Positions 9,001 through 32,339 of a stretch of DNA of 64,000 nucleotides are shown one piece after another (positions within the stretch are counted from its first letter, which is position 1; each line of letters starts with the position of its first letter). The DNA is from an uncultured candidatus Porisulfidus sp. (GTDB lineage: Bacteria > Pseudomonadota > Gammaproteobacteria > Poriferisulfidales > Oxydemutatoraceae): assembly GCA_965199685.1 (NCBI GenBank), contig OZ241323.1:1221283-1285282 (forward strand), written 5' to 3'. The translations under genes were made by a program, and so were the position numbers. The notes under the pieces were generated by a model. That model worked only from the letters and a program-made list of their open reading frames with translations. It ran no database searches and was not told the origin of the DNA.

Positions 9001-12000
9001 GATTCCATCGCAACCGGAATCAAGCGCACACTCGGATGGTTGCCGATTACTGTGCCGAAATAAATACCGCTTTGGTTGAGCTTTTCAATAGCAATCGGTG
9101 GGTGGAGGCTAATATCGTTCGTTGGCCTCAGGCCACGCAAACCGTAGCGAAAGCCCGGTGATATTAAATCACCGCAGCGCAGTGTCTTCAATGAACCGCA
9201 CTCAAGAATACTCTCAGTTGCGGTGGTATGTTTGAGTATCGGGTACTGATCTATATCACCGAAGTGCCAGTCGCTATCACTCCACTTGTAATAAACCTCG
9301 CTTGCATCCGATGATTGGCTGGTGCCCGATTGAAGCTGTTGCGTGTTTTGCTCGATCCCGTGGTTGCCTCCGCTGGCAATGGTGTCGGTATTCCAATAGC
9401 TGGCGACGATTGTGCCGCTGGGGTTGTCTCCGACTAAACTACCCCCTGTTCCCCCTCTGTTATTTAGTTCACCAATTGCATAACTATTTTTTATAGAACC
9501 TTCGTTATGTCCAACCAAACCACCTACTAAAAATCCCTCAATATTAACTGAGGCATAACTGTTCATAAGCTGTGCTTGCGAGTCATTGCTACCGACCAGC
9601 CCTCCAATAGTGGAACCACCACTTGCCAAAATCTTACCAGTTGCATAGCTATTAGCAATCAAACTCTGATTGCGACCCACCAAACCGCCAAAACGTGAAA
9701 TTCCTGAAACCGGCATTATGAGACCATCGGCATGACTATTGATAATCCTGCCATCGTTATCTCCGACCAAACCACCAAGCAATGAGGCTCCAGAAACTTC
9801 GCTTATCGCATAACTACCGATAATATCTCCACCCGCATTACTCGCAACCAGACCGCCGGCAGTGCCCCCGAACTTTGATTGAACACTGCCGCTAACATAA
9901 CTATAGCCGACCTGCCCTCGGTTGGTGCCGACCAGTCCGGCAACTTTTGCACCACCTTCTATTCTCACATTCAACAAGCCGATATTGCGTATAAGTGCAT
10001 CTGATGATGTAACACCAAATAAACTTTGATTGTCGGCATCGTCTTTGTTTATCTGCAAACCTGATATCGTATAGCCGTTGCCGTCAAAGCTACCGGTAAA
10101 AGGCTTTGTCTCGTTGCCTATAGGAACCCAACCTATATCGCTATCATCGTCGTAATCATCTACCGTCCAAAAAATCCTATTCAATGGATCTAGATAACTC
10201 TCGCGGTCTGCAAAGTCCAAATCCCTAGCCAACTTATAAAAGCCACTTGGTTGCTGGTGTATCGCACGCAAATCTTCCAAATAGTTAATCAACGCGAACT
10301 CTTTGACGGTGATATTTTGATAATCAATGTGTAGTGTATAGCGTACGGTTTGGGTTCCTTGCACTTCAATGTGGATACGTTGGATAGAGTTTTCTTGCAA
10401 AGGGATTGCTTTACTTGTCTCGCCGCTGCGGATACGGTCGTGTGCGATCTCATCATCGCCGATGTAGAAATTAATACGCGCAGTGGGTTCTATCGTCGTC
10501 GGAATAAACCGTATCGTGTTATCGGTACTGCGCAGACTGCCGATATAAATACCGCTGTGGTTTTGTTCCTCAATATTGAACTCAGGAGATAGGGCAAACT
10601 CGGTAGACAAAGCACCACCACCCACCATCTCCAAGTTGCGCAGACCGTAGCGTAAACGTGGTGATATCAACTCACCGCATTGCGGTAATCTCGGCAAACC
10701 GCAGCCATCGCCGTTGGGTCCCGGTGTATATTTGAGTATCGGATACTGTTCGCCGTTGCCGAAATCCCAGTTGGCATCGTCCCATTCCTCGTATATCCCG
10801 ATTGCCGAAGTGGGTAATTGCATTTGTTGCGTGGTCTGCCCGCTGCCATGACGACCTTGCAAACCGCTGGTCTCGGTATTCCAATAGCTCGCACTGATGC
10901 CGCCACCATCGCGAGCAACTAAACCGCCGCCACTTCCTTGCACTCTCCCGATAGCATAACTGTTTGCGATCATCACTTTAGGTAGTGCATTAGTGCCTAC
11001 TAAACCTCCCGATTCAATTTCTCCGACAACGCTACCTGTTGCGTAGCTATTGCTTATAGGCCCTCTGTTGGAACCGACTAAACCACCCACGTTACTATTC
11101 CCCGTCAAATCACCACTGGCAAAACTATTGATAATACGTGCATTGAGATCATTCCTGCCTACAAGTCCACCGACATAATATCGCACTCCCGAAAAACTGC
11201 CATGTGCATGACTATTGATGATTATGCCTAAATTATTGCCCGCTAAGCCACCTACACTTCCTTGAGAGCCTTCATCCTCCAGACTATGAAGCTCACCCAC
11301 TACATAACTAGCGACTATAGCTCCCTCATTGGAACCGGCGAGTCCACCGATGTATTGATTTCCTTCTATCTTGACATACGCCAAACCGATATGTCTTACC
11401 GTAGCCGTAGATGCCAAACCACCGAATAAACCTTGATAGTCGGCCGCATCTCTGTTTATTTGTAAATTCAATATCGTATGACCGTTGCCCTCAAAGGTAC
11501 CGTTAAAGCAGCTACTACGGCTATCATTGCAACCTATATCGACGGCTTTCCCTATCGGCAACCAGCCGGTGTCTGTACTATCTTCGTAATCGGCTACTGT
11601 CCATTTTGTTTTATTGAGCGGGTTGCGGTAGCTCGTATCGGCATTGAAATCTAAATCTCGGACTAATTCGTATTTACCATTTAGCCGATTGCGTATCGCA
11701 TCCAAATCTTCTAGGTAATAAATATCGCTAAAACCGTCATCCTCTTCAACTGTCATAAGCAATAACGGCTCGGATACGACACGATGATCGTGCCCTTGAT
11801 TATCGCGATAATCCAACAATACGCGATAGCTGATATTATCAATTGCCGAGAACACGGCAGATATCTTATAGCGCATTTCTGTGGCATCTTCAATGTCTTG
11901 CCACACTGCCGAATCGGGCAGTGGCTTGTATTGCCATTGATAACGAAGGCTCCTGAGGTCTACACCACCGTCGGGTTCCATAGATAAATCAGCCTCGCTG

Positions 12001-14292: not shown

Positions 14293-14334
14293 TGCTACCA
14301 AAATGCTTAAAAAATGCTGTCAACGCACCAATCT

Positions 14335-14640
14335 AACCGCTTGCGCCATTCAATTTATGAAAACGGTAGGGGCGGATTTGCATATCCGCCCTACGGTACC
14401 GTTCCGCACAACCGTAACCGCCCTGCGCCACCCAATCACGCACACCACCCTAACGCGTCATCCTTGAAAAATTCCAACCGCCTGCGCCCTCAAATTTACG
14501 AAACTGGTAGGGACGGATTTATATATCTGCCCTACGGTACCGTTCCGCACAACCGTAACCGCCCCGCGCCACCCAATCATGCAAACCATCATTCCCCTCC
14601 TCTGGAGGGGTGTCAGGTCTATGCATTTTGCAATGCATAG
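14335..14640. repeat. Two tandem H-type hairpin repeat units (141-bp period) plus two short palindromes
   Basis: Unit starts (aaccgc) at 14335 and 14476. Hairpin gtaggggcggatttgcatatccgccctac at 14366-14394. Palindromes cccctcc-tct-ggagggg (14594-14610) and ctatgcatt-ttgc-aatgcatag (14619-14640). The same family occurs in the opposite orientation at 32.5 and 36.2 kb. Confidence 0.85.
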
Positions 14641-14775
14641 GTTTAGCAATCATGTTAGGGTTCTGCACAACGTCACGCCGATTGACCCACTGGCTCAATC
14701 GGTAATTTAACATGTCCGTCATAACGCGTTGCGTCTGCACAATCAATACATCGATCTATTTGATTTGTAGTATGG

Positions 14776-16605: not shown

Positions 16606-17007
16606 ATGAAATTGCTTATTCAAATTATTTTAATACTTGTTAGTGCTCCAGTATTAGTGGTTCTAGTATGGTTTTATTCTTTCTCTTGGGAAAATAGTTA
16701 TGGTGAAAAAACGATTTTAATTGACTCTATATCTGCTCAGTTGACCATATTTGAGATGTTACTTGCATTGGCAGGCATTGTAATAGCAATAATGGCGTTT
16801 TTTGGATATCAAAAAATTAAAAAGGATATAACGAATGAAGTCAATAAATCTATTGACGATATTATTTATGAAAAAATAAACTCAGTATTAGACGAAAGAG
16901 GCTATCACCCAACCAAACATGCAACTGATACCGCCTCAAGCATAAAGGCTACTCAACTAAAAACAACTTCAAAAAATAAATTTCAAGACAATGTCGGAAA
17001 TAGCTAA
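16606..17007 (+). CDS. Small membrane protein (two predicted TM helices), unknown function
   Basis: 133 aa. Hydrophobic stretches LLIQIILILVSAPVLVVLVWFYSF and LTIFEMLLALAGIVIAIMAFFGY, then a polar Lys/Ser/Thr-rich tail. The 3' end overlaps the next gene by 17 nt, suggesting translational coupling. Confidence 0.6.
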   Translation: MKLLIQIILILVSAPVLVVLVWFYSFSWENSYGEKTILIDSISAQLTIFEMLLALAGIVIAIMAFFGYQKIKKDITNEVNKSIDDIIYEKINSVLDERGYHPTKHATDTASSIKATQLKTTSKNKFQDNVGNS

Positions 17008-17473
17008 AAACAGAAAATTAGTACTGAATATTGTAAAAGGACAAACTAATCCTCCGGTTTTACTGATGCCTATCGCCAATAAACTTGGAATAGAAGTCTA
17101 CAACGTACGAGGATGGAGCGATAGATTATCAGGAATGATAAGAGAAGATACAGAGGATGGCGGCAAGAGTGGTTATGCTATCTATGTAAATGCTAAACAT
17201 CCCGAAACAAGACGACGGTTCACAATCGCCCATGAAATAGCTCATTACGTACTACACAAAAATCTGATACGCGACGGAATAGTAGACGATACTCTGTATC
17301 GTAGTGGGTTGAGCAACCTCATTGAAATGGAAGCCAACAGGTTCGCCGCAGAGATTCTAATGCCTACACATTTGATTAGGGCAGCGATTAGAAAGGAATT
17401 CTCCATATCAAAATTAGCCAAAAAATTTAAGGTCTCAAACGAAGCAATGGCTATTCGGCTGCAAGCACCTTAA
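16991..17473 (+). CDS. ImmA/IrrE-family (M78) zinc metallopeptidase
   Basis: 160 aa with FTIAHEIAHYVLH (HExxH) followed by EANRFAAEILMP. This is the characteristic pair of motifs of ImmA/IrrE (COG2856) peptidases. Confidence 0.8.
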   Translation: MSEIAKNRKLVLNIVKGQTNPPVLLMPIANKLGIEVYNVRGWSDRLSGMIREDTEDGGKSGYAIYVNAKHPETRRRFTIAHEIAHYVLHKNLIRDGIVDDTLYRSGLSNLIEMEANRFAAEILMPTHLIRAAIRKEFSISKLAKKFKVSNEAMAIRLQAP

Positions 17474-17537
17474 AATTAGCCTCTCGCCTGAATTGAAAAA
17501 TCAATCTCCTCTTACATAGTTGACAGTCTGTTTCATA

Positions 17538-17569
17538 TAAGTTTTAGCCCTAAAAATAGAGGAAGGTCA
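17538..17569 (+). repeat. Partial third copy of the conserved upstream element (hairpin part)
   Basis: taagttttagccctaaaaatagaggaaggtca closely matches (about 26/32, with one 1-nt offset) the reverse complement of 16412-16443. It lies 140 nt upstream of the ATPase gene. A further GGGAAGGTCA occurs at 21641-21650. Confidence 0.5.
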
Positions 17570-17709
17570 CCTCAACCGTTCTGTTTCATTCATTGAAAAA
17601 AACAAGAATGATATACAAAACTAGTATATAGATTACAATGAGGCCCGATCGCATAGTGCATTGCAGTCCATACATACGAGGACAATAAACGAATAGAGAA
17701 ATCCGAATA

Positions 17710-18960
17710 ATGAAAATATCAAAGTTTAAAATTAAAAACATTAAGTGTTTTGAAGAGATTGAAATCCCGTTTGAAAACGACAATAATGATACAACAAACT
17801 GGTCTCTTATCGTGGGAGATAATGGGTCAGGGAAAACAACAATCCTTAGAAGTTTAGCTTTAGGCTTATGTGATAGAGAAGGAGCTTCAGCCCTTCTATC
17901 AGAATTATATGGTGATTTCTTACGACAAGATACAAACGAAGGAGAAATCGAGGTTACATTGAAAGATACGCAAAATAATGAATATACAATTACAACCAAA
18001 ATAGAGGGAGACAATGAGGCAGTTTCTCAAACTACTAATCCTGAAAGTATTCAAGATATCAGAAGAGAAATTTCTGTAGTAGCTTACGGTGCAAGCAGAT
18101 CCATAATGGGTACGGAGTCATACAATGGATATGCTTTAGTTGACTCTCTATATACCCTCTTTAATTATGAGGCCAGCTTACAAAATGCCGAATTAGGAGC
18201 ACGAAGGATTAAAGATCATAAAAATGGTGAATGGGAGAAAACAAAAGAAACCCTCAAAAAAGTTTTAATGTTTGATGAGAAGGACGAAATTTCCTTAGAA
18301 ACGACAGGGCTTTATCTTAAGAAAAGTAATATCGGAAAAATCTCTTTCAACGCCTTAAACGACGGATACCAATCGCTAACCTCTGTTATTCTAGACTTTT
18401 TGAGCTGGAAATTACTTGGTGTGGAAGAGGGTTTTGACTTAAATAATCTCTCGGGTATTTTTATCCTTGATGAAATTGAACAACATCTACATCCACGCTG
18501 GCAAAGAAATATTATTAAACTTCTCTCCGAACAGTTTCCAGATATACAATTTATATGCACTACCCATACACCTATTTGCGCTTTAGGGCTTAATGATTTA
18601 AATTGCGCATCTCAACTCGTTAAGGCCTCTTATGATAACAGCCATAGCAATGTTGATCTTTTCAACTTAAAAGACGAGTTTAAGGGCTACAGAGCCGACC
18701 AAATATTAACCTCAGATATTTTTGGTCTGTCAGATACTAGAAGTATTTCTATTGAAAACAAATTGAACGAATACAGAGAGATTTATCTAAAATCCGAAGA
18801 TGGAAGAAGTGCGGACGAGAAAGATAAGTTGCAGGACATTGAAGAGGAGTTAAAGGATCTTCCTATGTGGGAAAACGAAGAGGACAGAAAGACAAGAGAA
18901 AAAATCATTGAATTATTGAGGAAACGCAAGAACGAAATAGCAAGCTCAGATGGGTTATAA
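17710..18960 (+). CDS. ABC-type (AAA_21/AAA_15-like) ATPase, soluble
   Basis: 416 aa. Walker A GDNGSGKTT, signature-like LNDGYQSL, Walker B IFILDEIEQHLHP, H-loop CTTHTP. No TM, nuclease or other effector motif seen. Confidence 0.8.
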   Translation: MKISKFKIKNIKCFEEIEIPFENDNNDTTNWSLIVGDNGSGKTTILRSLALGLCDREGASALLSELYGDFLRQDTNEGEIEVTLKDTQNNEYTITTKIEGDNEAVSQTTNPESIQDIRREISVVAYGASRSIMGTESYNGYALVDSLYTLFNYEASLQNAELGARRIKDHKNGEWEKTKETLKKVLMFDEKDEISLETTGLYLKKSNIGKISFNALNDGYQSLTSVILDFLSWKLLGVEEGFDLNNLSGIFILDEIEQHLHPRWQRNIIKLLSEQFPDIQFICTTHTPICALGLNDLNCASQLVKASYDNSHSNVDLFNLKDEFKGYRADQILTSDIFGLSDTRSISIENKLNEYREIYLKSEDGRSADEKDKLQDIEEELKDLPMWENEEDRKTREKIIELLRKRKNEIASSDGL

Positions 18961-19051
18961 TGGAATCCGTCCGCGACGTGCATTGGGGAGTCAAACCCTC
19001 AATACACTTTTGGTATGACATTAAAACAATATCATTGATTTCTTAGGCACT

Positions 19052-19315
19052 ATGGCACAACATATTTCAATCATAAACTCGGAGCGGAAAGGCTTACGGA
19101 AAATCGCAAAAAGCCTTACGGAAAAAACCTCAAGAGGGATTTGGGCAGTTGCCGGATCACTGAAATTTGAAGAGCTACCATACCAAGAATACAAGATGAA
19201 TTCTCACGACAGAGTTTTTGTAACCGAACGAAATGTGAACGGACAAAAAGAAAAGTTTGAACTACATTACGATACAAAAGCCAAAAAAATACTAGATATG
19301 TTTCTTGTGAAATGA
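19052..19315 (+). CDS. Hypothetical small protein (87 aa) between the ATPase and the DUF4209-like gene
   Basis: ORF only; no recognisable motif. A 28-codon ORF (18960-19046) starts at a TAATG overlap with the ATPase stop and may be a remnant. Confidence 0.35.
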   Translation: MAQHISIINSERKGLRKIAKSLTEKTSRGIWAVAGSLKFEELPYQEYKMNSHDRVFVTERNVNGQKEKFELHYDTKAKKILDMFLVK

Positions 19316-19325
19316 CCGGAATGCT

Positions 19326-21173
19326 GTGATTGTTCCTATACGCCATAACATTGAACAAAGTAAAGATATGCTACACAATGAAGTCAAGACTTACCTAGAA
19401 AACTTACAACAAGCGCAAAAATTTGATGCACCTGTAGAGCATTCAATTGCTCAAAAAATAAAAGAAATCCTAGAAGAAGATCCAAAATATCAACCAACAG
19501 ACGAAGACAGGGCAGAGCAAATGGCTTTTGACTTTATGGAAAACTATCCAAATAATGATACAGGTTGGAAAACAGATAACGGACGACTAATGTATTACGG
19601 ACCAATGTTTGTACTTCCGGATGATAAAAACCAGATGAGGGAATATCCGAGTATTACACGAGTTAACAAAGAAACATTGGAATACTGGGGAAAACGAGCA
19701 GAAGAGAGTACACATCCAATACTGTCATCTCGTTATGCAGATTTAATTGTTGATTTCTCTCATGAAATTTTAGGAGAAGAAGCAAATATTAATTTTTATC
19801 AAATTGCTATAGACTCTAATGTTGAGATTTGTGAAAAATCTCTTATACCCTTCCCACACAACATGACTAAAGCTAGGCGAGCATTGAAGTTGTCTGATTA
19901 TAAACACGATTCATCCCGAATAAACCAAGTAAAAGATACAATTATAAAATTGGGAAATGAACCCGGATGCAAAGATTTTGCTTTTGAGTTGCTACTTATA
20001 GATTTCCCTAAACAAATAGTTTTCAGTAGAGAAGAAAAAGAAAATCTTATTAAGGAGACGGAAAAATTTCTAGAGGAAATAAAACAAAATCCACACATTG
20101 CGGAACGTTATGTTTCTCTTCTTGCAGAGTATTATGCTAAAGAGAAGGATGAAAATAACCTTATGCGTGTTTTGAATATTTTAGAAAAATCTCTAAAAGA
20201 ACATAGTCAATTAAACTCCGAAGCATTGTTAACGATGAATGCCTATAATCAAATTCAGGAAATATATCGGCACTACGCAAACAGATTTAATGAAGCAAAA
20301 AAAGCTAGCGAAAGAATTAGTAAAGAATTTGGGCAGCTTGATTTGGATATAGATAAATATCTTCAAGACATATCAGTCGAAATAAAAATCGAACAAGAGG
20401 ATATTGATAAAAACATAAATTCTATCTTCGGTGCAAAAAGGAATAACGAACTGGAGACAATAATGGGGAAAATTGCACTTCGCTTCTTACCCCAAAAAGA
20501 TAACATAAAAAAGTCACTATCCGATATTTCTAGTAAATACCCCTTACAATTTTTATGTAGCCAGCAAATTATTTCTGATGAAAATATCCCAATTGCTAAC
20601 CTTGGTTCACTTGAAGACGATTATGATAATCATTTGCAAAACCATACGAAACAATATATTCTGCCTAATTACTTTTTCTTGCCTCCTATAATAGATGAAT
20701 TAAAGAAACATTTCTCGAAACAAGCGATTACCAAATATTTTTGCAAAGCCTATCTTTTTAGAGATAAAGAGAGAAAATATATTGAAAGAGCAATTTCTAC
20801 ATATTGGGAAAATGACTATCTTGTCTTTTCATCTCTATTGGTCCCACTCATAGAGAGTAGTATAAGGAGATTAATTGGGATTTGTGGGGGATCAACTCTA
20901 GAACGAAACCGCACAAAAGGTTATGATTACATTCCACTTCATCACTTACTAGAAAATAACGAAAGTATACTCTCAAAAGTTTTCTCGGAAATTGGCGATG
21001 ATCTATCTTTCTATTTGCGTTTTGTCCTTACGAAAAAGCTAGGCATGAATTTAAGAAATAACTTTGCACATGGAATTGGGCTGAAAGATTTTTTTAGCCG
21101 CAATGTGTCAGACACATTATTTCACATATTAATCTGTTTGTCTTTAGTTGCTAAAAAGGAGGATAATCAATAA
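19326..21173 (+). CDS. DUF4209-like protein with C-terminal HEPN-type Rx4H motif (putative RNase effector)
   Basis: 615-aa ORF with a GTG start at 19326; an ATG alternative exists at 19368. The C-terminus ...FVLTKKLGMNLRNNFAHGIG carries R-N-x3-H. The preceding IESSIRRLIG... helix pattern is reminiscent of DUF4209 (the ERMARD/C6orf70-type HEPN). Assignment from memory. Confidence 0.65.
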   Translation: MIVPIRHNIEQSKDMLHNEVKTYLENLQQAQKFDAPVEHSIAQKIKEILEEDPKYQPTDEDRAEQMAFDFMENYPNNDTGWKTDNGRLMYYGPMFVLPDDKNQMREYPSITRVNKETLEYWGKRAEESTHPILSSRYADLIVDFSHEILGEEANINFYQIAIDSNVEICEKSLIPFPHNMTKARRALKLSDYKHDSSRINQVKDTIIKLGNEPGCKDFAFELLLIDFPKQIVFSREEKENLIKETEKFLEEIKQNPHIAERYVSLLAEYYAKEKDENNLMRVLNILEKSLKEHSQLNSEALLTMNAYNQIQEIYRHYANRFNEAKKASERISKEFGQLDLDIDKYLQDISVEIKIEQEDIDKNINSIFGAKRNNELETIMGKIALRFLPQKDNIKKSLSDISSKYPLQFLCSQQIISDENIPIANLGSLEDDYDNHLQNHTKQYILPNYFFLPPIIDELKKHFSKQAITKYFCKAYLFRDKERKYIERAISTYWENDYLVFSSLLVPLIESSIRRLIGICGGSTLERNRTKGYDYIPLHHLLENNESILSKVFSEIGDDLSFYLRFVLTKKLGMNLRNNFAHGIGLKDFFSRNVSDTLFHILICLSLVAKKEDNQ

Positions 21174-21230
21174 TAAAAATTGATGTCATACTTAAATTTA
21201 GTACTAATACTAATCTGTTCGGTTCTTTTA

Positions 21231-21617
21231 TTATTTGTTAATCAATTTCTCACAAACACTATATGCTAATTCCATAGTAAGTGGTTTTTTAGCGTTTTTC
21301 AAATCCTTCATGGTCTGCTCCCATAAAGAGGATTCAATATATTTAATATAATTGCTTCCTTTTTTAGTTAGTCCAATAATGTTAACAAGACGTATCATAT
21401 TATCAAGAATCTTCTTATCACGAAATTCAGCTTCTATTAAACCCTCCTCCTCAAGCATCTTTGCATGAAAAACTATTTTTCCATCGCTTATATTCTTGAA
21501 ATTTTCTTTTATGGCATCGTTGTTTCTTATATCCGATGGTTCTATGTGTGCTGGATAAGACTCTTTATCGGCAATTATTTTAAGAATAGTTTCTGATAGT
21601 TTTATATCTTCTCTCAT
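21231..21617 (-). CDS. DUF2513-like small winged-helix-type protein
   Basis: 128 aa. The N-terminus MREDIKLSETILKIIADKE and VFHAKMLEEEGLIEAEF resemble the DUF2513 pattern. It lies 83 nt downstream of the Type ISP-like gene on the same strand. Confidence 0.45.
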   Translation of the reverse strand: MREDIKLSETILKIIADKESYPAHIEPSDIRNNDAIKENFKNISDGKIVFHAKMLEEEGLIEAEFRDKKILDNMIRLVNIIGLTKKGSNYIKYIESSLWEQTMKDLKNAKKPLTMELAYSVCEKLINK

Positions 21618-21700
21618 AGTCTTTATTATATTTCAGACGAGGGAAGGTCAATCGCATGGGATTAGGGTTGTTTTCAAGGACTAGCAGAAGTTGGGAATCA

Positions 21701-24700
21701 TCATTCGGGCTCGTCGGCATATTGGTTGTAGCCTAAACCGCATACATGTGGTTCTTGATAGAGAAGCAGGCGTAATTTCTTGAGTTTCTTGGCATCCCAG
21801 CTCATTGCTTTGGCGACGGCTTCATCCCAACGGCGGCGTACTTCACATTCACCGTCTCGAAACTGAGGAACAACCATATCCTTTGTTCGTTCCCAACAAT
21901 TGGCAAGTAGCTTGCATATTCGTTTGTCTTTGATGTTTGGGATACGCAGATTATTTACTTCTGCGACGCTGTAGGAAGGAAAATCTAATGTCCGACCAGG
22001 AACCCTCATCAGTTGTAACCGCCCGACAGTTGAGTTGATGAACACTGCTGCCGCCTTTGCTTCTTTCGAGGAGAGTCCGGTAACTGGTATCCAGCTGTTA
22101 CCCACATATTTTTCGTCACCTGCTACCGCAGTAAGACGTCCTGTGCCAACGCGTTGTCCTGCAGTGATTAACAAATATCCTGCTTTTTGTAATATCTTTT
22201 CCACTTCAGGATAGTTGCTCTCGTTCAAATCTAGTGTTTTTTTATTTCGTTTTTTGGGTATCCAATGTTCATCGGGAACACCAAGAATGAATGTTTGCGC
22301 ATCTGCACTCTTGGATTTTAATATAGGGAGGCTACCGGGAGTATTGGGTTTCACTGATACAAAAGAACCACGCAAAACCCGACCCGCATCCTGTGCTAAA
22401 AGATCAAGTTGTTCTTTAATAGAAAGCAAATTTTGATCATCGTAACAGTAATCGGCAGCAGCTTGCGCCAATTCAGGCGACCGCCAAATTGCAGGAGTCC
22501 AATCGCCAGTTTGAATACGCTCGGCAGGCCAGTGAGAAACTTCTCCCCATCCGTTTGCTATCAATCCCTGCTGACATCGTAGTAAGCATTGATGAAAATC
22601 TGCTACTTCGTCTTCGTCAATAGGCATTCTGTCAAGATTAATGAATCTAGTCGGTGGTTTGGAACCACTGTGCCTTTGCATCACGATGATACTCTCGCTG
22701 ATACTCGTATCTGAGCTCATGTTTATGTTCCTGGGTTGATGTGAGGTCAACACGGTATGTATATGGAAGCGTCGAGCAAGCTCAAGCCTCTCACACTGCC
22801 CAGAAGGTACCGTAAGGGCAACTGCCGGGTTGATCATTGTTAGTATGCCGTTGGTTTGCTTCACACAGTGGTCGGCAAGTCCGACGAAAAGCGGCCCGAT
22901 GGAATTTGCATTTGTAAACTCCATCATATCAGGGTCAGCTTGGATGAGTTTTTGTTTCATTTGGTCGGTGCGATTGCGCAAAGCCTCTTGGATGGTAACA
23001 GGAAACTTTTCACCCATCTTGAAACGGTTGGTAAACGGCGGGTTCATAATGATGATGTGGGCATCCTTAGCGGCATCTACCGCATCTTCCAATTCCACAT
23101 TATCTTCCCAGATCTCTTGAGAGTCTATCGTGTCGTCAGGAAAGTTCAGTTCATCGTCTCTGTCAGCTATTACTTTCTGTGCCAGTAGTTCTAATGTTCC
23201 AGCAGATATTTTATCCGAATTGAACGGATCAGGTCCGTACGGCATCAAGTGTAATCCCATCCTGCGGTAACGTACCTCTCTGTTGCCTGCCGTCAGTTGT
23301 GCTGCTGCAAGTTGTAAGGATACAGGATTGATATCCATTCCCTTGATAGTGTCTTGTACGGCTATTTTCTGAAGTTCGGCAATACGCCTTTCATTCGCGC
23401 CTCTTGCTTTTGCTCTCCTTTTCATATCAGTCATCATTGCGGCAAGCAATGTGCCGCTACCGCAAGCTAAATCAGCCGTTTTGTGTTGCTGCCAAACTTC
23501 AGGGTCGCTCCAGTTCTGTTCTCCGCAGGCATCCAGCGTCAGGCGAGCAGCTAAGGAAGCGGCAGGTGGTCTTGTGAAAAAAGCCCCGTCGCTCGCTTGA
23601 TTACCCATTACTTTATTAAACAAGGGACCGGCATGGTCGGCACCCATATCAGCATAAGTTTCGGCAATACGCTCGGCTTCTGCAGAAATATGACTCAATG
23701 CATTTTCTAATCCACTGATTGTGCCGGTCTTTTCAATCGCATAAATGGCATCAACGGCAGGTTGGAATATTGGGCGGAAATCTATACGCATAATACGCTC
23801 CCATTCCTGTTTTATATTGTGAATAACTTTGGTGCTATTTTTGATTTCGGACAGAGGACTTATGTTCGGCATCCAGCCACCGTCACTGATACGTTGGTGT
23901 AGCATGGCAGCATTCATCATGAGCAAAGCGACTATCGTACAGCCGTCCGCTTGCTCTGAAATGTCTTTTAGGTTATCCAACCCGAAGTGCCGGTTCAGTT
24001 CTTTGGTCAAGTTGTCACTCTCAAGATATCGTGATGCTTCGTTGACCGCGTTCTCCAGCAGGTTTAAATCACGAGCCACACGGTCAGTCCTCAGACCGGA
24101 CTTGCGCAACAGGTTCATCTTGATGGCATCCCCATGTTCACCTAGACCACTCAGCAACAGCAGTTGCTTACCGTACATCTGATCCATTTCTTCACGGGTT
24201 CGCCTTTCTTTCCTCTCTGATGGACGCGGTCGTCGTGTGCCGGCACCTTCGTTGATCATCTTTTTAGCCTTCTTTTTGCTTTTATCATAATCCACTGCGC
24301 CACGTGCTTCACCAGCAGCGGGTTTTTTCCTCGCAACGGTATCTATACGTAGTTCAATCTCGCCATCACTATTCTTTTTACCCGAGATGATTTGTGTAGG
24401 TTCTTCAGCCTTATATTCTGCTTGCGTGTCGCCAATACGATGGAATGCTTTGTTTGATTTGCTTTTTCCTTGCAACATTTTTTCTACTGCTTCTTCTACC
24501 GCACCCGGTGGCCCTTCGTATTCTCGATACTGAATACGATCTTTTTCCTTGTCTCCTTTGCTCACATATGCGACTATTGTTCGGATTTTTTCAGGTTCGC
24601 TCGGAATATAAACCTTTAGAAGATCAGATAGCTCGTCTTCTATACGTTGATCGTGAGCACGCAACGCCAGTAATATTTGCCCAAGTTCTTGCCAACCTTC

Positions 24701-26701
24701 TTCCATGTCACTTGTGCTGAGCCAGCTTTCCGGGTCGGCATCCGGTGGAATCAAAATGGGACAGATGATATAGCCTAGTTCCTTATTCGGTGCAGTCCGC
24801 ATAGCGCGTCCGACAGCCTGAATCACATCAATGGGGCTTTTGCGCGCTTCCAAAAAGGCAACAGCACTCAATGATGGCGAGTCCGTACCTTCTCCGAAAA
24901 TACCGACATTAAGGATACCGTAGGGAGAATCTGAGGTTGCATTGGCGAGTTGTTGTTTGGCTTGATCGCGCTCCACGACATTACTGGTAGCATCAAGGTG
25001 TTCTAATCTGTATTTCTTAGCTTGGCTGCCATCTGCATTATCTTGTAGCCATTCCTGAATCCATTCACGCACAGGCTCAGTTTGCAGTTTCCTAGACATC
25101 TCTTCGGATTTGGCGACGGTATTCAGAAATGCTATGCAAGAATTGATTGGGATGTTGTCTTTTTTGCTGCCTTGGGCAGCCCCTCCCATGGCAAGGGCAA
25201 AAACCAAACCCTTGAGATATTGCGCACTGCTCGGAGCTTTCTTTTTGCTTAATTCGGTTTCGGAGGCTAACTGATTGGCTTGCTTGTAGGCTTCAGGATC
25301 ATTGACACCCAAGGCGATGATACGATAGTCGGATAGCCAACGGTTTTTCACAGCTTCGGGATAACTCTTGCGGTACAACTCAACGCCAAATGTTGATACA
25401 TCATCCATATCTCGCACAATCCAATTATCGTTTTTGTTCTCTTTTAACTCAAAGACTTTGGGTGTGGCTGTCTGATATACCCTATAAGTTACCGGAAATT
25501 CCTTGTTGTTGTGGCACAGAGTAAAATCACGGATTTGTTTTTCCTCTTCATGTGCCTTTTCACGCGCCTTAGCAGTCCTGGACTTTCTACGCCGTAGTCC
25601 GGCAGTGCGATGTGCTTCGTCGGCAATCAGCACCTTTGCCGTGACTTTGGATGATTTTAAGGCATCTGCAACTTTACGCCCACTTTGGTATGTGCCGAAT
25701 ATCACGTTGATAGCATCTTCGTTTTTCCCATCCTTAATCCATTTTGCAATCTCTCTCGAGTCAGTAGTCACTCTACCTTTTAATTCTGTCTCACTGATAT
25801 TGCTGTTGTCTACCGTCGGATTTTCTGAAGTATTAATGGAATCTTCACGATTGGGATCGTAACCAGCTGTTTTATCGGAGCAGACGGCAAGCGGTCTAAT
25901 GCGACCACTGCTATGTTGTAAATATTCACGTCTGATTTGCGCAACAAGCGCAATGGAAGGACATAGAACAATGGCTAATTCACCGGGTTTCGTCAGTTTC
26001 TCCACAATGCGTAACGATATGCGTGTCTTGCCGGTGCCACACGGAAGAATGATTTTACCTCGTGCCTGCCCTTTGGGTAATCCTCCACTATTCGTCCTCT
26101 CGTGTTCCTGTAAAATACGAACACTCTCGGCTACTGCTTCATCCTGCATGGATGTCCTAGTCTGCGGCGGTATATCTGCATCGGAATGAGGTGGTGGGAG
26201 ATTATCGTCCTGAGTTGGCATTGCATCACGAGCTTGACATAAATCTTCATAGATGTTGATAACTTTAAGCGGTTTGGAACGCAAATCAGCGCGGTTCTGT
26301 GCATTAGCGGGAACACGATTGCTACCATTGGTTACAAGCCACAACTCATCCCAGAACTCATGGGTCGTAGATGCAAGAAATTTATTTATTTCATCTGTTT
26401 TTATATTCACTCCCTGTCCTTGTTCATCTAATTTGCGAGCCTTGCACTGGATAGCGATGTGTTTGCCATCGCTACGGCGCATGGCAACAACATCTATGCC
26501 TATATCTTGCTTCGTGATATTTTGGAAACGGGATTGAGTTTTTGCCCAGTCACTCCATAAGGCAGCCTCTGAGATATCCCACTCCTTAATATGAGGTGCA
26601 ACATCAACGGTCAATTGCTCCAGCCATTTGCCGTCTGTTTGTTGCGGATTTCTCTTGTCAAGCTCCTCAAAGGCTCTCTGAATTATCTCAGTGGTTGTCA
26701 T
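21701..26701 (-). CDS. Type ISP-like single-polypeptide restriction-modification enzyme (Mrr-like nuclease + SF2 helicase-like ATPase + N6-adenine methyltransferase + C-terminal target-recognition region)
   Basis: 1,666 aa. PD-(D/E)XK-like DIGIDVVAMRRSDGKHIAIQCK. Helicase motif I LPCGTGKT, motif II LIADEAHR, motif VI QAVGRAMR. Methyltransferase motif I DLACGSGTLL and motif IV IIMNPPF. About 460 aa follow NPPF. The domain order matches LlaGI/LlaBIII-type enzymes. Confidence 0.7.
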   Translation of the reverse strand: MTTTEIIQRAFEELDKRNPQQTDGKWLEQLTVDVAPHIKEWDISEAALWSDWAKTQSRFQNITKQDIGIDVVAMRRSDGKHIAIQCKARKLDEQGQGVNIKTDEINKFLASTTHEFWDELWLVTNGSNRVPANAQNRADLRSKPLKVINIYEDLCQARDAMPTQDDNLPPPHSDADIPPQTRTSMQDEAVAESVRILQEHERTNSGGLPKGQARGKIILPCGTGKTRISLRIVEKLTKPGELAIVLCPSIALVAQIRREYLQHSSGRIRPLAVCSDKTAGYDPNREDSINTSENPTVDNSNISETELKGRVTTDSREIAKWIKDGKNEDAINVIFGTYQSGRKVADALKSSKVTAKVLIADEAHRTAGLRRRKSRTAKAREKAHEEEKQIRDFTLCHNNKEFPVTYRVYQTATPKVFELKENKNDNWIVRDMDDVSTFGVELYRKSYPEAVKNRWLSDYRIIALGVNDPEAYKQANQLASETELSKKKAPSSAQYLKGLVFALAMGGAAQGSKKDNIPINSCIAFLNTVAKSEEMSRKLQTEPVREWIQEWLQDNADGSQAKKYRLEHLDATSNVVERDQAKQQLANATSDSPYGILNVGIFGEGTDSPSLSAVAFLEARKSPIDVIQAVGRAMRTAPNKELGYIICPILIPPDADPESWLSTSDMEEGWQELGQILLALRAHDQRIEDELSDLLKVYIPSEPEKIRTIVAYVSKGDKEKDRIQYREYEGPPGAVEEAVEKMLQGKSKSNKAFHRIGDTQAEYKAEEPTQIISGKKNSDGEIELRIDTVARKKPAAGEARGAVDYDKSKKKAKKMINEGAGTRRPRPSERKERRTREEMDQMYGKQLLLLSGLGEHGDAIKMNLLRKSGLRTDRVARDLNLLENAVNEASRYLESDNLTKELNRHFGLDNLKDISEQADGCTIVALLMMNAAMLHQRISDGGWMPNISPLSEIKNSTKVIHNIKQEWERIMRIDFRPIFQPAVDAIYAIEKTGTISGLENALSHISAEAERIAETYADMGADHAGPLFNKVMGNQASDGAFFTRPPAASLAARLTLDACGEQNWSDPEVWQQHKTADLACGSGTLLAAMMTDMKRRAKARGANERRIAELQKIAVQDTIKGMDINPVSLQLAAAQLTAGNREVRYRRMGLHLMPYGPDPFNSDKISAGTLELLAQKVIADRDDELNFPDDTIDSQEIWEDNVELEDAVDAAKDAHIIIMNPPFTNRFKMGEKFPVTIQEALRNRTDQMKQKLIQADPDMMEFTNANSIGPLFVGLADHCVKQTNGILTMINPAVALTVPSGQCERLELARRFHIHTVLTSHQPRNINMSSDTSISESIIVMQRHSGSKPPTRFINLDRMPIDEDEVADFHQCLLRCQQGLIANGWGEVSHWPAERIQTGDWTPAIWRSPELAQAAADYCYDDQNLLSIKEQLDLLAQDAGRVLRGSFVSVKPNTPGSLPILKSKSADAQTFILGVPDEHWIPKKRNKKTLDLNESNYPEVEKILQKAGYLLITAGQRVGTGRLTAVAGDEKYVGNSWIPVTGLSSKEAKAAAVFINSTVGRLQLMRVPGRTLDFPSYSVAEVNNLRIPNIKDKRICKLLANCWERTKDMVVPQFRDGECEVRRRWDEAVAKAMSWDAKKLKKLRLLLYQEPHVCGLGYNQYADEPE

Positions 26702-26790
26702 AATTTATTTTTGCATACTACACTTGTAGTAAACGCAATTATATATTATACCGAACCTAAGTTTGACAAAGTCGGTAAATGAGACTTCAA

Positions 26791-27609
26791 TTATTTTGTG
26801 TAACTTTGTTTTTTATTGGGGGCGTGCATGTCAACTGAAAGCAATAGCTTGTAAGCTAGGCTTGCTAGAGCGATATAGTGTAGGGCTAGATTCTTTTCTA
26901 TTTTTTGGGGAGGCGAGTGTGCTTTCCCATTTCTAAAATGTTGTATAGCCATAAGTAAAAATCTCACACCTTGAAGAAAATTATCTTGCTCTATTTCTTC
27001 TTTTGTATATCCCCAAATCTTTTCCAAGTTTTTCTTAGAGGAGGCATCAGTTCCTCTTTCGTATCCTGTGATGTCCTTTAATTTTCCAAGAAAAATCATG
27101 TAGGAATTCCATACGGCATTAGAATAGTGTTCATTGTTTAATAACTCCTGTACACCTCTGAAAATATCCTCATGCAGAATAATATCAGTTGTGTTATCCG
27201 AAAATACGGTTTGAGGTGGGTTTTTAATTTCAACTGGCGGTTTGCCTAAAAGTCTGTGGGCAATATTTTGAGCATCTACGATTCGTTTTTCTGGAAAATC
27301 CTTCTTTATTAGTTTTCCCAGATCAATTTCGTGCTTGATGTATTCTATAAATTTAAAGATAGTTTCACCGACTAGTTTGTTATTGCCGTGTAAGAAAAAA
27401 TTGAATACATTATCAGCTTCCTTGGCATATTTGTTAGATTTGTATCCGTATAATAAAGAATAATAATCTCCACGATTTTGATAAATATCAACTCCCAATT
27501 CCTCAAAAAAATGGTACAAATCTCTATTTGTAAAATTTAAGACCCAACCGTCTTCCATTTGAAGTAAAACTTCAAGTGTTCTTTTTTCCTCTAATGTCAA
27601 ATTTACCAT
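26791..27609 (-). CDS. TIGR02391 (Ymh)-family protein, HEPN-like Rx4H motif, with an extra N-terminal domain
   Basis: 272 aa. The C-terminal half LHEDIFRGVQELLNNEHYSNAVWNSYMIF...FLQGVRFLLMAIQHFRNGKAHSPPQ...ALHYIALASLAYKLL fits the Ymh pattern and contains R-N-x3-H. The N-terminal LTLEEKRTLEVLLQMEDGWVLNFTNRDLYHFFEE resembles modules often fused to HEPN proteins (tentative). Confidence 0.65.
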   Translation of the reverse strand: MVNLTLEEKRTLEVLLQMEDGWVLNFTNRDLYHFFEELGVDIYQNRGDYYSLLYGYKSNKYAKEADNVFNFFLHGNNKLVGETIFKFIEYIKHEIDLGKLIKKDFPEKRIVDAQNIAHRLLGKPPVEIKNPPQTVFSDNTTDIILHEDIFRGVQELLNNEHYSNAVWNSYMIFLGKLKDITGYERGTDASSKKNLEKIWGYTKEEIEQDNFLQGVRFLLMAIQHFRNGKAHSPPQKIEKNLALHYIALASLAYKLLLSVDMHAPNKKQSYTK

Positions 27610-27654
27610 GTCCGATATAAAACTATGATAGATAATTGTTCATAACAAAACTAG

Positions 27655-31422: not shown

Positions 31423-32339
31423 TTAATCGGTAGTTTTACCGTTTAGTTTTTCAATTTCAGGGATAGGTAGACCTGTCACTTCGGAAATCAATGAAACTTC
31501 TAAACCTTTTTGCAACATATTCAAGACGATTTCGCGGTTTATTTTTTCTTTCATTGCTTCTTCCCTCAGCTGGTATTCCCACTCGCGTCTTTGTATGGAT
31601 ATAGCGTTCCACTCGTCTCTTTCCTCTTTGGATACTTCCATTAAATGTTCTAGTGCCATCTTCGTTTCTCCGTCTTGTGATAAATACTCTACTTGCTTGG
31701 GTGTCAATTCTGCCGAGTGTTTAATAATATAGCACCACCTATCTCTCATATCAACTAGTTCAAGGTGGCTCTTGTTAAAGTTTACTAATTCCACGACCAC
31801 CATTTCAAAATCCTTAGTCACTTGCTTACCATGATGCTTCTGCAAGGTCATTTTTACTTCGTTGATATAGTCTCCTTCACCAAACACATCAGCTAGGGTA
31901 AATGCCAGTAAGTAGGTAGGCTTAACTTCAGCATACTTTATTGTCCACGCTTGAGCTGGCGAGTATGCAACTGCCCCCAATAAATCACCATTCTGGTTAT
32001 GAAATGTTCCTCAAAATAGACTTGCATTTCTATGTTGACATTCTCGCCGCTACTGAGTTTGACATTGAGGTCAAGCACCACCTGTTTACCATCGGGTGTA
32101 GCTGATGGAATAGAACTGTCTTGCAGATGTAGCTTATCGTCCGATGGGTTCTGTTGATTGGCGGTATCGGATGCCGTGTTTAGTATATCGGGATTGACTA
32201 ACGATATATCGGTAGCGTCATCGGAGACTGGCAGGAAGCTCTTAATCAATGAAAACAGTAATTGCTTATTGGTTGAGAAGTATCGTTTGAAGAAAACGTC
32301 ATCTGTCAATTTCAAGTATTTAGTATATTTTTGTTTCAT
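31423..32339 (-). pseudogene. Rpn-family (YhgA-like, PD-(D/E)XK) recombination-promoting nuclease/putative transposase, frameshifted
   Basis: Two overlapping ORF-track fragments (31938-32408 and 31423-31980). The N-terminal part MKQKYTKYLKLTDDVFFKRYF...VLDLNV...NIEMQVYFEEHFITRMVIYWGQL stops at 31938-31940. The family continues in another frame (KYAEVKPTYLLAFT...), implying a 1-nt indel near 31940. The likely true ATG is at 32339. The C-terminus LQKGLEVSLISEVTGLPIPEIEKL is typical. Confidence 0.75.

What the first reader, a model, noticed from the sequence alone, without database searches (positions are those of the whole stretch)
17710..21173. Candidate undescribed defence module: ABC-type ATPase + small ORF(s) + DUF4209/HEPN-like protein
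Seen: the 416-aa ORF has Walker A GDNGSGKTT, LNDGYQSL, Walker B IFILDEIEQHLHP and CTTHTP, with no effector domain. Its stop overlaps (TAATG, 18958-18962) a start that opens only 28 codons. Next come an 87-aa ORF and a 615-aa ORF ending in ...LGMNLRNNFAHGIG (R-N-x3-H). Known: Rx4-6H, often RNxxxH, is the catalytic signature of HEPN RNases. DUF4209 is the domain of eukaryotic ERMARD/C6orf70, which comparative analyses place in the HEPN superfamily. ABC-ATPase + effector pairs are a recurrent anti-phage layout (Septu, Gabija, PARIS, Lamassu). Inference: an ATPase sensor coupled to a large HEPN RNase, an Abi-like system. I cannot match this pairing to a named system from memory. The 28-codon coupled ORF may be the stump of a lost third component.
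Basis: partly seen in the sequence, partly recalled or inferred. Interest (0 to 1): 0.7.

Follow-up and report, generated by a model that had tools for sequence, protein, structure and literature searches.

The report
Orphan Septu ATPase beside HEPN gene
The three reading frames exist, but they are three separately mobile pieces of a defence island (a Septu ATPase that has lost its nuclease partner, a small uncharacterised protein, and a stand-alone DUF4209/HEPN gene that usually travels with restriction-modification systems), not a new ATPase-plus-RNase defence module.

Summary
The proposed module does not hold up.

- **ATPase (17710-18960):** this is PtuA of the known Septu system. Close relatives (81-82% identical) are followed by an overlapping intact PtuB HNH nuclease. 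In the window PtuB is deleted.
- **28-codon ORF:** it is neither a gene nor a PtuB stump. It lies in the conserved non-coding leader of the 87-aa gene.
- **87-aa ORF:** a real but undescribed small protein family (55 clusters). Elsewhere it sits beside PLD nucleases, DNA methylases or Gabija, without PtuA.
- **615-aa ORF (true start probably ATG 19368, 601 aa):** it matches Pfam DUF4209 and PADLOC candidate PDC-S39, with an invariant Rx4H motif. Seventeen of 22 other loci place it beside restriction-modification genes. None of 27 has PtuA, and none of 61 PtuA-like loci has DUF4209.
- **Breakpoints:** homology breaks at 18950-18952, 19317-19326 and 21200-21214 show separate cassettes.

The pairing recurs only in one orthologous contig. 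The most likely function of the DUF4209 protein is an R-M-associated HEPN RNase that acts as a back-up, abortive-infection defence. This is inferred, not shown. One oddity remains: orphan PtuA is still under purifying selection.

The parts
17710..18960 (+). PtuA, the ABC-type ATPase of a Septu system, here without its PtuB nuclease (orphan). The last 4 codons (SDGL) are new: the ancestral TGA stop became TCA.
   Evidence: PADLOC PtuA models up to 3.9e-66. NCBIfam PtuA 3.3e-34, below its cut-off. Best PDB sequence matches are PtuA and retron Ec78/Ec83 PtuA. Relatives L030 and L106 (82% and 81% aa) carry an overlapping intact PtuB. dN/dS is 0.23-0.25, the same as for intact copies.
18950..19051 (+). 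Conserved non-coding leader of the 87-aa gene. It has a TATAAT-like box at 18956-18961 and a hairpin at 18978-19007. It contains the chance 28-codon ORF (18960-19046). The junction with the PtuA block is at 18950-18952.
   Evidence: The alignment with L029, L031, L032, L106 and L107 shows the leader conserved in L106 and L107, where the 87-aa gene is not adjacent to PtuA or PtuB. L106 lacks the ATG, and a 28-nt indel breaks the frame in L029, L032 and L106. There is no similarity to PtuB genes (z about 0). blastn breakpoints are.
19052..19315 (+). 87-aa protein of an undescribed small family (N-terminus MAQHISIINS invariant). It is a satellite of R-M and defence loci; function unknown.
   Evidence: 37 homologues at 49-99% identity, all about 87-90 aa. 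55 clusters among 1.84 billion representatives. No Pfam, PADLOC or NCBIfam hit. AF2 mean pLDDT 80 with order beta-alpha-alpha-beta-beta-beta-beta, and no Foldseek match in the PDB. Differences by codon position are 8/3/11 and dN/dS is about 0.5. Neighbours elsewhere are PLD nuclease, methylases and GajAB.
19326..21200 (+). Self-contained DUF4209 / PDC-S39 gene cassette. The CDS is most likely 19368-21173 (601 aa). It has an N-terminal alpha-helical repeat domain and a C-terminal HEPN-type domain.
   Evidence: Pfam DUF4209 3.6e-9 at residues 509-603. PADLOC PDC-S39 6e-29. About 300 full-length homologues at 50-55% identity across phyla. The same cassette alone, 85% nt identical, is in L001 from exactly 19326 to 21200. 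In AF2, residues 110-340 are confident helical repeats and the C-terminus is below pLDDT 50.
21054..21071 (+). Rx4H motif (R577-N-N-F-A-H582 in 615-aa numbering), the predicted HEPN catalytic signature.
   Evidence: R577 and H582 are invariant and N578 nearly invariant in 25 diverse homologues. The motif's role is taken from PMC3710099.
21231..21617 (-). DUF2513 protein. It travels with the large R-M enzyme in relatives.
   Evidence: Pfam DUF2513 6e-7. The same gene sits next to the R-M enzyme in L030, L031 and L106.
21701..26701 (-). 1666-aa single-chain restriction-modification enzyme (Mrr-like nuclease + SF2 helicase + N6 methylase). It is the R-M neighbour of the DUF4209 gene.
   Evidence: Pfam Mrr_cat_2, ResIII, Helicase_C, weak N6_Mtase/Eco57I. 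PADLOC REase_MTase_IIG 1.7e-88 and REase_MTase_I 5.6e-56.

Best explanation
The stretch 17.7-21.2 kb is a mosaic of three independent defence-island pieces, not one system.

1. **PtuA.** This is the ATPase of a Septu system. Its HNH nuclease partner PtuB was first truncated and then fully deleted when a small cassette became joined to the end of ptuA.
2. **The 87-aa cassette.** It consists of a conserved leader plus an 87-aa protein of unknown function. Elsewhere that protein accompanies PLD nucleases, methylases or Gabija. The 28-codon ORF is a chance ORF in the leader.
3. **A single-gene DUF4209/PDC-S39 cassette.** It was inserted between the 87-aa gene and the DUF2513 + R-M enzyme block.

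**Mechanism (inferred, not shown).** The DUF4209 protein is a stand-alone HEPN-type RNase. Its N-terminal helical-repeat domain would keep it latent. It would be switched on during phage infection, plausibly when the neighbouring restriction-modification system is challenged or blocked, and would cut cellular RNA to abort the infection. This is the logic known for PrrC.

PtuA cannot cut anything without PtuB. It remains under purifying selection, so it probably still does something, for example with a PtuB made from another Septu locus of the same genome. What that is remains unknown.
For: **Identity of the parts.**

**Intact PtuA-PtuB in close relatives.** L030 and L106 have it at what is partly the same chromosomal site. 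L029 and L032 keep only nucleotides 1-182 of ptuB, joined to the same 87-aa cassette.

**Block boundaries.**
- PtuA homology ends at 18952.
- 87-aa cassette homology runs 18950-19317 in L107, and to 19315 in L029, L032 and L106.
- DUF4209 homology to L001 runs 19326-21200.
- DUF2513/R-M homology starts at 21214.

**No co-occurrence.** There is no PtuA in 27 DUF4209 loci and no DUF4209 in 61 PtuA-like loci, of which at least 15 have a PtuB-like HNH gene directly downstream.

**DUF4209 sits by R-M genes in 17 of 22 loci with usable flanks.** It is usually co-directional and 2-50 nt downstream of a methylase or R-M gene. The partners include:
- EcoRI-type, D12, C5 and N4/N6 methylases;
- TaqI, EcoRV, EcoRII and MutH-like nucleases;
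- type I HsdR/M/S;
- PLD-SNF2 with an Eco57I-type methylase.

Anantharaman 2013 already noted that the family 'occurs in R-M related operons'.

**Other points.**
- Distant plasmid homologues are solitary genes.
- There are no phage or viral-contig copies.
- R577 and H582 are invariant.
- The PrrC precedent is described.
Against: - The RNase activity and the defence role of DUF4209 are untested. PDC-S39 is only a 'phage defence candidate'.
- The HEPN fold was not confirmed here. The AF2 C-terminus has pLDDT below 50, and hhalign against the window's Ymh protein found nothing.
- In the window the DUF4209 gene is not in an operon with the R-M enzyme. The two are convergent, with DUF2513 between them.
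- Orphan PtuA has dN/dS 0.23-0.25, like intact copies at 0.21. This is unexpected for a useless remnant.
- In both orphan lineages PtuA and the 87-aa gene are followed 52 nt later by a predicted nuclease: DUF4209 here and a PLD nuclease in L029 and L032. This leaves room for a functional link.
- Second copies of all three genes exist on the same 2.88-Mb contig (P0121, P0245, P0003). Their arrangement could not be retrieved.
Confidence: 0.72

Rival explanations
1. Effector-swapped Septu. After losing PtuB, PtuA now works with the downstream genes. The 87-aa protein would act as an adaptor, and a replaceable nuclease would be the effector: the DUF4209 HEPN RNase here, a PLD nuclease in L029 and L032.
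For: - All genes are co-directional. Gaps are small (52 nt between the 87-aa gene and DUF4209), and no terminator-like site is predicted between them.
- Orphan PtuA is under the same purifying selection as intact copies, although PtuB was already broken before the window and L029 lineages split (shared junction).
- Two orphan lineages have the parallel layout PtuA, 87 aa, nuclease.
- Some ABC ATPases of defence systems are known to pair with many effectors (PADLOC-group preprint).
Against: - No PtuA in 27 DUF4209 loci and no DUF4209 in 61 PtuA-like loci.
- The 87-aa gene, the PLD nuclease and DUF4209 each occur without PtuA elsewhere.
- Homology breakpoints fall exactly between the genes.
- In L106 an intact PtuAB lies 5 kb from the 87-aa gene, so the present adjacency arose by deletion.
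- All supporting loci come from one lineage.
Confidence: 0.1
2. Decaying locus. PtuA is a non-functional leftover on its way to loss. Only DUF4209 and the R-M enzyme matter, and the apparent constraint on PtuA comes from recombination with intact Septu copies in the population.
For: - PtuB is lost.
- The same island holds other broken genes: a split PDDEXK_2 gene, a truncated ApaLI nuclease and a split methylase.
- Several PtuA paralogues at 81-91% identity exist in the same or related genomes and could act as donors for gene conversion.
Against: - The 416-codon frame is intact with all ATPase motifs.
- dN/dS is 0.23-0.25 between orphan copies that diverged to dS 0.19-0.35 after PtuB was broken.
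Confidence: 0.1
3. The DUF4209 protein is not a suicide RNase. Instead it is an accessory or regulatory factor of restriction-modification systems (for example controlling their expression or establishment), using its HEPN-like domain only to bind RNA or nucleotides.
For: - It has tight operon-like placement downstream of many unrelated methylases, and divergent placement next to LexA-peptidase-methylase fusions.
- It shows unusually high sequence conservation for a defence effector: 50-55% identity across phyla and 71% mean column identity.
Against: - The catalytic-type R and H of the Rx4H motif are invariant.
- It also occurs as a solitary gene far from any R-M system (L001 and plasmid copies).
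- PADLOC lists it as a single-gene candidate enriched in defence contexts.
Confidence: 0.08

Closest known systems
Septu (PtuA ATPase + PtuB HNH nuclease), including the PtuAB effector pair of retron Ec78/Eco7
   Same: The 416-aa protein is a clear PtuA: PADLOC 3.9e-66, and its best PDB matches are 8ee4 PtuA and the retron Ec78/Ec83 PtuA chains. Relatives 81-82% identical carry the canonical overlapping PtuB.
   Different: PtuB is absent from the window, so the defining nuclease is missing. No retron reverse transcriptase or ncRNA was found (Rfam scan). PtuA is nevertheless kept under purifying selection.
DUF4209 / C6orf70 (ERMARD) family of the HEPN superfamily, which corresponds to PADLOC candidate PDC-S39
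   Same: Pfam and PADLOC matches, an invariant Rx4H, fusion to helical (TPR-like) repeats, and association with R-M operons. All of this is as described by Anantharaman et al. 2013.
   Different: Nothing essential differs; this is an ordinary full-length bacterial member. In the window it is convergent with its R-M neighbour rather than in an operon with it. No member has been tested experimentally, as far as the searched literature shows.
PrrC / RloC anticodon nucleases
   Same: The logic is the same: a HEPN-type RNase genetically tied to a restriction-modification system, latent until the phage interferes.
   Different: In PrrC the ABC ATPase and the nuclease are one polypeptide embedded in a type I hsd operon. 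Here they are separate genes of separate origin. The DUF4209 protein has a helical-repeat N-domain instead of an ATPase, and its partners are R-M systems of many types.
Two-gene ABC-ATPase + effector systems (Gabija, PARIS, Lamassu, HEC-01 to HEC-03)
   Same: An ABC-type ATPase lies upstream of a predicted nuclease in a defence island.
   Different: Those pairs are conserved across lineages. This one is not.

Membership tests
Septu | PtuA: ABC-type ATPase matching PtuA profiles, with intact Walker A/B, signature and H-loop motifs | tested here: met
   PADLOC PtuA 3.9e-66. PDB phmmer hits to PtuA chains at about 1e-16. Motifs fall on invariant columns. The NCBIfam PtuA equivalog scores 118.7 bits, below its 500-bit cut-off, so this is a divergent subfamily.
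Septu | PtuB: HNH nuclease gene adjacent to, and usually overlapping, ptuA | tested here: not met
   There is no HNH ORF in 18950-19326 in any frame. The spacer has no similarity to PtuB genes. PtuB is present in relatives L030 and L106 and truncated in L029 and L032.
Septu | Anti-phage activity that depends on both proteins | not testable with these tools
   Needs cloning and phage challenge.
HEPN superfamily (DUF4209/C6orf70 family) | Match to the family profile above the curated threshold | tested here: met
   PF13910: 37.0 bits against a cut-off of 22.3, residues 509-603. 40.1 bits for the C-terminal fragment alone.
HEPN superfamily (DUF4209/C6orf70 family) | Conserved Rx4-6H motif | tested here: met
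   R577 and H582 are invariant and N578 at least 90% conserved in 25 homologues from many phyla.
HEPN superfamily (DUF4209/C6orf70 family) | Four-helix up-down HEPN fold | tested here: inconclusive
   The AF2 model is all-helical there, but pLDDT is below 50 for residues 510-615. Foldseek returned only generic helical-repeat matches. hhalign against the window's Ymh protein was negative.
HEPN superfamily (DUF4209/C6orf70 family) | Metal-independent RNase activity | not testable with these tools
   Biochemistry needed.
PADLOC PDC-S39 (single-gene phage defence candidate) | Match to the PDC-S39 profile over most of its length | tested here: met
   PDLC05012 at 6e-29, residues 105-584 of the protein against positions 85-574 of 615 in the profile.
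PrrC-type R-M-embedded anticodon nuclease | ABC ATPase and HEPN nuclease in one polypeptide, embedded in a type I hsd operon | tested here: not met
   The genes are separate and of separate ancestry. The neighbouring R-M is a single-chain Mrr-helicase-methylase on the other strand.
Proposed new ATPase + DUF4209 module | Conserved co-occurrence of the two genes in independent lineages | tested here: not met
   0 of 27 DUF4209 loci and 0 of 61 PtuA-like loci. The only repeat is the orthologous locus L031.

The most novel reading that the evidence does not exclude
Orphan PtuA has been re-partnered. After PtuB was lost, the ATPase is retained because it now controls whichever nuclease lies downstream of the 87-aa gene: the DUF4209 HEPN RNase in this genome, a PLD nuclease in relatives. 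The 87-aa protein would be a new adaptor. That would be a natural example of effector swapping in Septu, and the first functional context for both DUF4209 and the 87-aa family.
Probability: 0.1. Interest if true: 0.65.

Novelty: new member of a known kind. Interest (0 to 1): 0.3.

Why it matters
As a claim of a new defence system it does not stand, and that is the main result. Three things remain useful.

1. It gives a documented case of a Septu ATPase kept under normal purifying selection long after its nuclease was lost. This raises the question of whether PtuA has a PtuB-independent role or works in trans.
2. It adds fresh neighbourhood evidence that full-length DUF4209/PDC-S39 proteins are satellites of many unrelated restriction-modification systems. 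The evidence is 17 of 22 loci. This makes the family a good, still untested candidate for a PrrC-like back-up RNase.
3. It identifies a small, rare and unannotated protein family (87-90 aa) that recurs beside PLD nucleases, methylases and Gabija.

Tried and rejected
1. **The 28-codon ORF as a PtuB fragment.** I first read this ORF and the start of the 87-aa ORF as an out-of-frame remnant of the PtuB HNH motif, because of apparent matches such as DVHWGVKP to DVEHFRPK. I rejected this for three reasons. The same DNA is the conserved leader of the 87-aa gene in L106 and L107, where that gene is not next to PtuA or PtuB. It has no DNA similarity to PtuB genes (z about 0, against z of 35-55 for the true remnant in L029). 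The N-terminus MAQHISIINS is invariant across the whole 87-aa family.
2. **Structural confirmation of HEPN.** The AF2 model is of low confidence in the C-terminal third. Foldseek gave only generic alpha-solenoid hits. hhalign against the window's Ymh protein found nothing. A relaxed Pfam scan added no other HEPN family.
3. **Fold of the 87-aa protein.** The model is confident, but no PDB match has E below 0.1. My guess of a RelE/ParE-like fold is therefore unsupported. Distant family members have no Pfam domain.
4. **Rfam scan of 14-36 kb.** Nothing relevant and no retron ncRNA.
5. **Promoter and terminator scan.** Counts were no higher than in shuffled sequence.
6. **Contexts of P0121, P0003 and P0254.** These are not on record.
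7. **Phage and viral collections.** No DUF4209 relatives.
8. **Metagenome scan with the PtuA profile.** It returned mostly distant relatives (23-40% identical). It therefore tests the broad family rather than the close clade.


Full report
**Observation.** The ATPase motifs, the TAATG overlap and the LGMNLRNNFAHGIG motif are all present. The region lies in a low-G+C island (32-37% against about 45-48% outside). The island runs from about 14.7 to 35 kb between giant ORFs and is full of defence-type genes.

**The ATPase is Septu PtuA.**
- Pfam gives AAA_21/AAA_15/SMC_N.
- PADLOC gives dozens of PtuA models, the best at 3.9e-66 over residues 2-385.
- NCBIfam's retron-Ec78 PtuA model hits at 3.3e-34, below its equivalog cut-off.
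- The best matches among solved structures are PtuA (8ee4) and the retron Ec78/Ec83 PtuA chains.
- Of 749 homologues, the closest (81-91% identity) come from one group of metagenome assemblies.
- In two of them, L030 (82%) and L106 (81%), ptuA is followed by an overlapping 241-250-aa gene with CCYCE...DVEHFRPK...NLLISCK(T/K)CN motifs. The L030 copy matches PADLOC PtuB at 8.8e-56. These are intact Septu systems.

**PtuB has been lost in the window, and the 28-codon ORF is not its remnant.**
- In L029 and L032 (85-86% PtuA), only the first 182 nt of ptuB survive (Smith-Waterman z of 35-55 against intact ptuB genes). They are joined to a block that carries the 87-aa gene.
- In the window and its orthologue L031 even that remnant is gone. 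PtuA-block homology ends at 18952, and homology to the solitary 87-aa cassette of L107 starts at 18950.
- The ancestral TGA stop of ptuA is TCA in the window. The frame therefore runs four more codons, ending at the TAA (18958-18960) that overlaps a TATAAT-like box of the cassette (18956-18961). This creates the 'TAATG coupling'.
- The roughly 100 nt between 18950 and 19051 are conserved in L106 and L107, where the 87-aa gene is not next to PtuA or PtuB. They include an 11-bp hairpin (18978-19007 in the window, weakened there by one mismatch).
- The 28-codon frame is not kept. L106 lacks the ATG, and L029, L032 and L106 have a 28-nt indel.
- The leader has no similarity to ptuB (z about 0). 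I had first read it as a decayed HNH motif and withdraw that reading.

**The 87-aa ORF is a real, undescribed small protein.**
- It has 37 homologues at 49-99% identity, all about 87-90 aa, with an invariant MAQHISIINS N-terminus.
- An exhaustive profile search finds only 55 clusters among 1.84 billion representatives, nearly all 85-105 aa.
- There is no hit in Pfam, PADLOC or NCBIfam, even for distant members.
- Substitutions between copies fall 8/3/11 by codon position, and dN/dS is about 0.5.
- AF2 gives a confident small alpha/beta fold (pLDDT 80) with no PDB match.
- Its neighbours elsewhere are:
  - a PLD (NgoFVII-like) nuclease in three independent settings (L029/L032; L044 with an N6_N4 methylase; Roizmanbacteria contigs L033-L040 with a RadC-Dam methylase and an AlwI fragment). 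The PLD proteins themselves are 63-73% identical;
  - an Eco57I-type methylase followed by GajA-GajB (L041 and L042);
  - DUF2513 plus the large R-M enzyme (L106);
  - nothing in particular (L107).

  It is therefore a satellite of R-M and defence loci, not a Septu component.

**The 615-aa ORF is an ordinary full-length DUF4209 / PDC-S39 protein.**
- Pfam DUF4209 matches residues 509-603 at 3.6e-9, and PADLOC PDC-S39 matches at 6e-29.
- About 300 homologues of about 600 aa share 50-55% identity across Aminicenantes, Patescibacteria, Atribacterota, Ignavibacteria, Gammaproteobacteria and an archaeon.
- All of them start at the residue aligned with M15, so the CDS is probably 19368-21173.
- R577 and H582 are invariant.
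- The only paper in the library that mentions DUF4209 is Anantharaman et al. 2013. It places the family (C6orf70) in the HEPN superfamily, predicts it to be catalytically active, notes fusion to TPR repeats, and says it 'occurs in R-M related operons'.
- PDC-S39 appears in the literature only as PADLOC output. PDCs are 'phage defence candidates' of unconfirmed function.
- AF2 gives confident helical repeats for residues 110-340 but low confidence for the C-terminus. The HEPN fold therefore rests on the profile, the motif and the 2013 analysis, not on my model.

**Is the ATPase-DUF4209 pairing conserved? No.**
- A scan of one genome per species found 28 DUF4209 loci. tblastn with the window's PtuA finds nothing in any of them.
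- A metagenome scan with a PtuA profile gave 61 loci. None has DUF4209, while at least 15 have a PtuB-like HNH gene just downstream.
- The arrangement PtuA, 87 aa, DUF4209, DUF2513, R-M recurs only in L031, which is 89% identical in DNA over window 17507-26744. It is the orthologous locus of a close relative.
- The DUF4209 gene alone, 85% identical in DNA from exactly 19326 to 21200, sits in a MAG labelled Candidatus Porisulfidus with no PtuA or 87-aa gene nearby (L001).
- L106 shows an ancestral-type layout: PtuA, PtuB, ornithine decarboxylase, DUF3326, lipase, 87 aa, DUF2513, 257 aa, R-M. The window can be derived from it by a deletion from ptuB up to the cassette, plus insertion of the DUF4209 cassette between the 87-aa gene and DUF2513.

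**What DUF4209 does associate with.** In 17 of 22 loci with usable flanks the neighbours are R-M genes of many kinds, usually co-directional and 2-50 nt upstream:

| Loci | R-M neighbours |
|---|---|
| L003, L005, L006, L013, L022 | EcoRI-type methylase with or without GmrSD_N-HNH |
| L008, L009, L011 | TaqI nuclease with a LexA-S24-methylase fusion |
| L017 | LexA-S24-C5 methylase |
| L012 | PLD-SNF2 helicase with an Eco57I-type methylase |
| L019 | EcoRV with a D12 methylase |
| L026 | C5 methylase with EcoRII |
| L016 | N4/N6 methylase |
| L007 | MutH-like nuclease |
| L027, L028 | type I HsdM/S or HsdR |
| L020 | a C5 methylase near tandem DUF4209 copies |

Distant plasmid homologues are solitary. 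There are none in phage or viral collections. In the window the nearest R-M is the 1666-aa Mrr-helicase-methylase enzyme at 21701-26701, convergent with DUF4209 and separated from it by DUF2513.

**Mechanism.**
- *Shown:* domain content, motif conservation, R-M association and independent mobility.
- *Inferred:* the DUF4209 protein is a latent HEPN RNase whose helical-repeat domain senses infection or failure of the linked R-M system. It then cleaves RNA to stop growth, by analogy with PrrC, which is held inactive by EcoprrI until the phage peptide Stp blocks restriction.
- PtuA alone has no nuclease. In Septu and in retron Ec78 the PtuAB complex is the effector, and recent work reports tRNA-Tyr cleavage (abstracts).
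- Orphan PtuA nevertheless shows dN/dS of 0.23-0.25 between copies that diverged after PtuB was broken. This equals the 0.21 seen between intact copies. This is the one observation my main explanation does not account for. Action in trans with another Septu locus, a PtuB-independent role, gene conversion from intact paralogues, or re-partnering with the downstream nuclease are all open.

**Verdict.** The domain calls are right. The proposed new module is not supported, and its parts belong to known or already listed kinds. Interest is modest. The open points are the retained orphan PtuA, the untested R-M-linked DUF4209 family, and the new 87-aa family.

Noticed in passing
window 26791-29451 (- strand): A 598-aa AAA_15/AAA_21 ABC-type ATPase (PADLOC AriA 1e-26, AbiLi 3e-17, Old 7e-17) is followed 45 nt later by a 272-aa TIGR02391/Hypoth_Ymh protein. 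Ymh is a HEPN family in Anantharaman 2013, and this protein contains RNGKAH. This is an actual ATPase + HEPN-like gene pair in the same island, just downstream of the 1666-aa R-M enzyme on the same strand. Whether the pair is conserved was not checked.
   Followed up: partly
window 16606-17473 (+): A 133-aa membrane protein overlaps a 160-aa ImmA/IrrE (M78) metallopeptidase (PADLOC CapP 1e-31) just upstream of ptuA. It is not part of the PtuA block, since homology to L031 starts at 17507. A 3' fragment of the same peptidase gene lies after the 87-aa gene in L106 (13414-13494).
   Followed up: partly
window 18950-19051; L029, L031, L032, L106, L107: The leader of the 87-aa gene in this lineage has a TATAAT-like box and an 11-bp hairpin (GTGCATTGGGG / CCCCAATGCAC) followed by CACTTTTGG. 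RNAfold z is -2.0 to -2.7 in L031 and L107 and -1.4 in the window. It could be a terminator/attenuator or a small RNA. No covariation is available. Distant family members lack this leader.
   Followed up: partly
L029 and L032; L033-L040; L044: A PLD (NgoFVII-like) nuclease of about 305 aa and the 87-90-aa protein recur as neighbours in three unrelated settings. The PLD proteins are 63-73% identical and the small proteins 58-68% identical to the window's 87-aa protein. This is a possible two-gene unit of its own.
   Followed up: partly
DUF4209 family; L013, L020: Full-length DUF4209 proteins are unusually conserved for a defence-island gene: 50-55% identity between bacterial phyla and an archaeon, and 71% mean column identity. 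L020 carries three or four tandem, partly broken copies. L013 has a 965-aa version with a C-terminal extension.
   Followed up: no
L008, L009, L011, L017: DNA methylases fused to a LexA DNA-binding domain and an S24 self-cleaving peptidase domain lie divergently next to DUF4209 genes. This is an odd architecture that suggests damage- or signal-controlled methylation.
   Followed up: no
window 31423-32408, 33230-34802: Decayed genes in the same island: a PDDEXK_2 gene split into two ORFs, an ApaLI-type nuclease reduced to its C-terminal 119 aa, and an N6_N4 methylase split into two overlapping ORFs.
   Followed up: no
window 14300-14770: Short repeats of about 100 nt are shared in many copies with L001, L106 and L107 (blastn 74-93% identity). 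They look like a multi-copy repeat element of this lineage at the edge of the island.
   Followed up: no
window 36998-54691 and 55601-63955 (- strand); 1-14000: Giant ORFs of 5897 aa and 2784 aa flank the island. The first 14 kb has almost no ORF over 100 aa in the list. It may belong to another giant ORF running off the window, since L030 has a 5891-aa gene ending at the homologous position.
   Followed up: no
L029 and L032, upstream and downstream of PtuA: In the sister lineage the orphan PtuA block sits between an MNT/HEPN-type (NTase_sub_bind + Polbeta) pair and a HerA-SIR2 system (PADLOC HerA 2e-246, SIR2 9e-74). This is another dense defence island.
   Followed up: no
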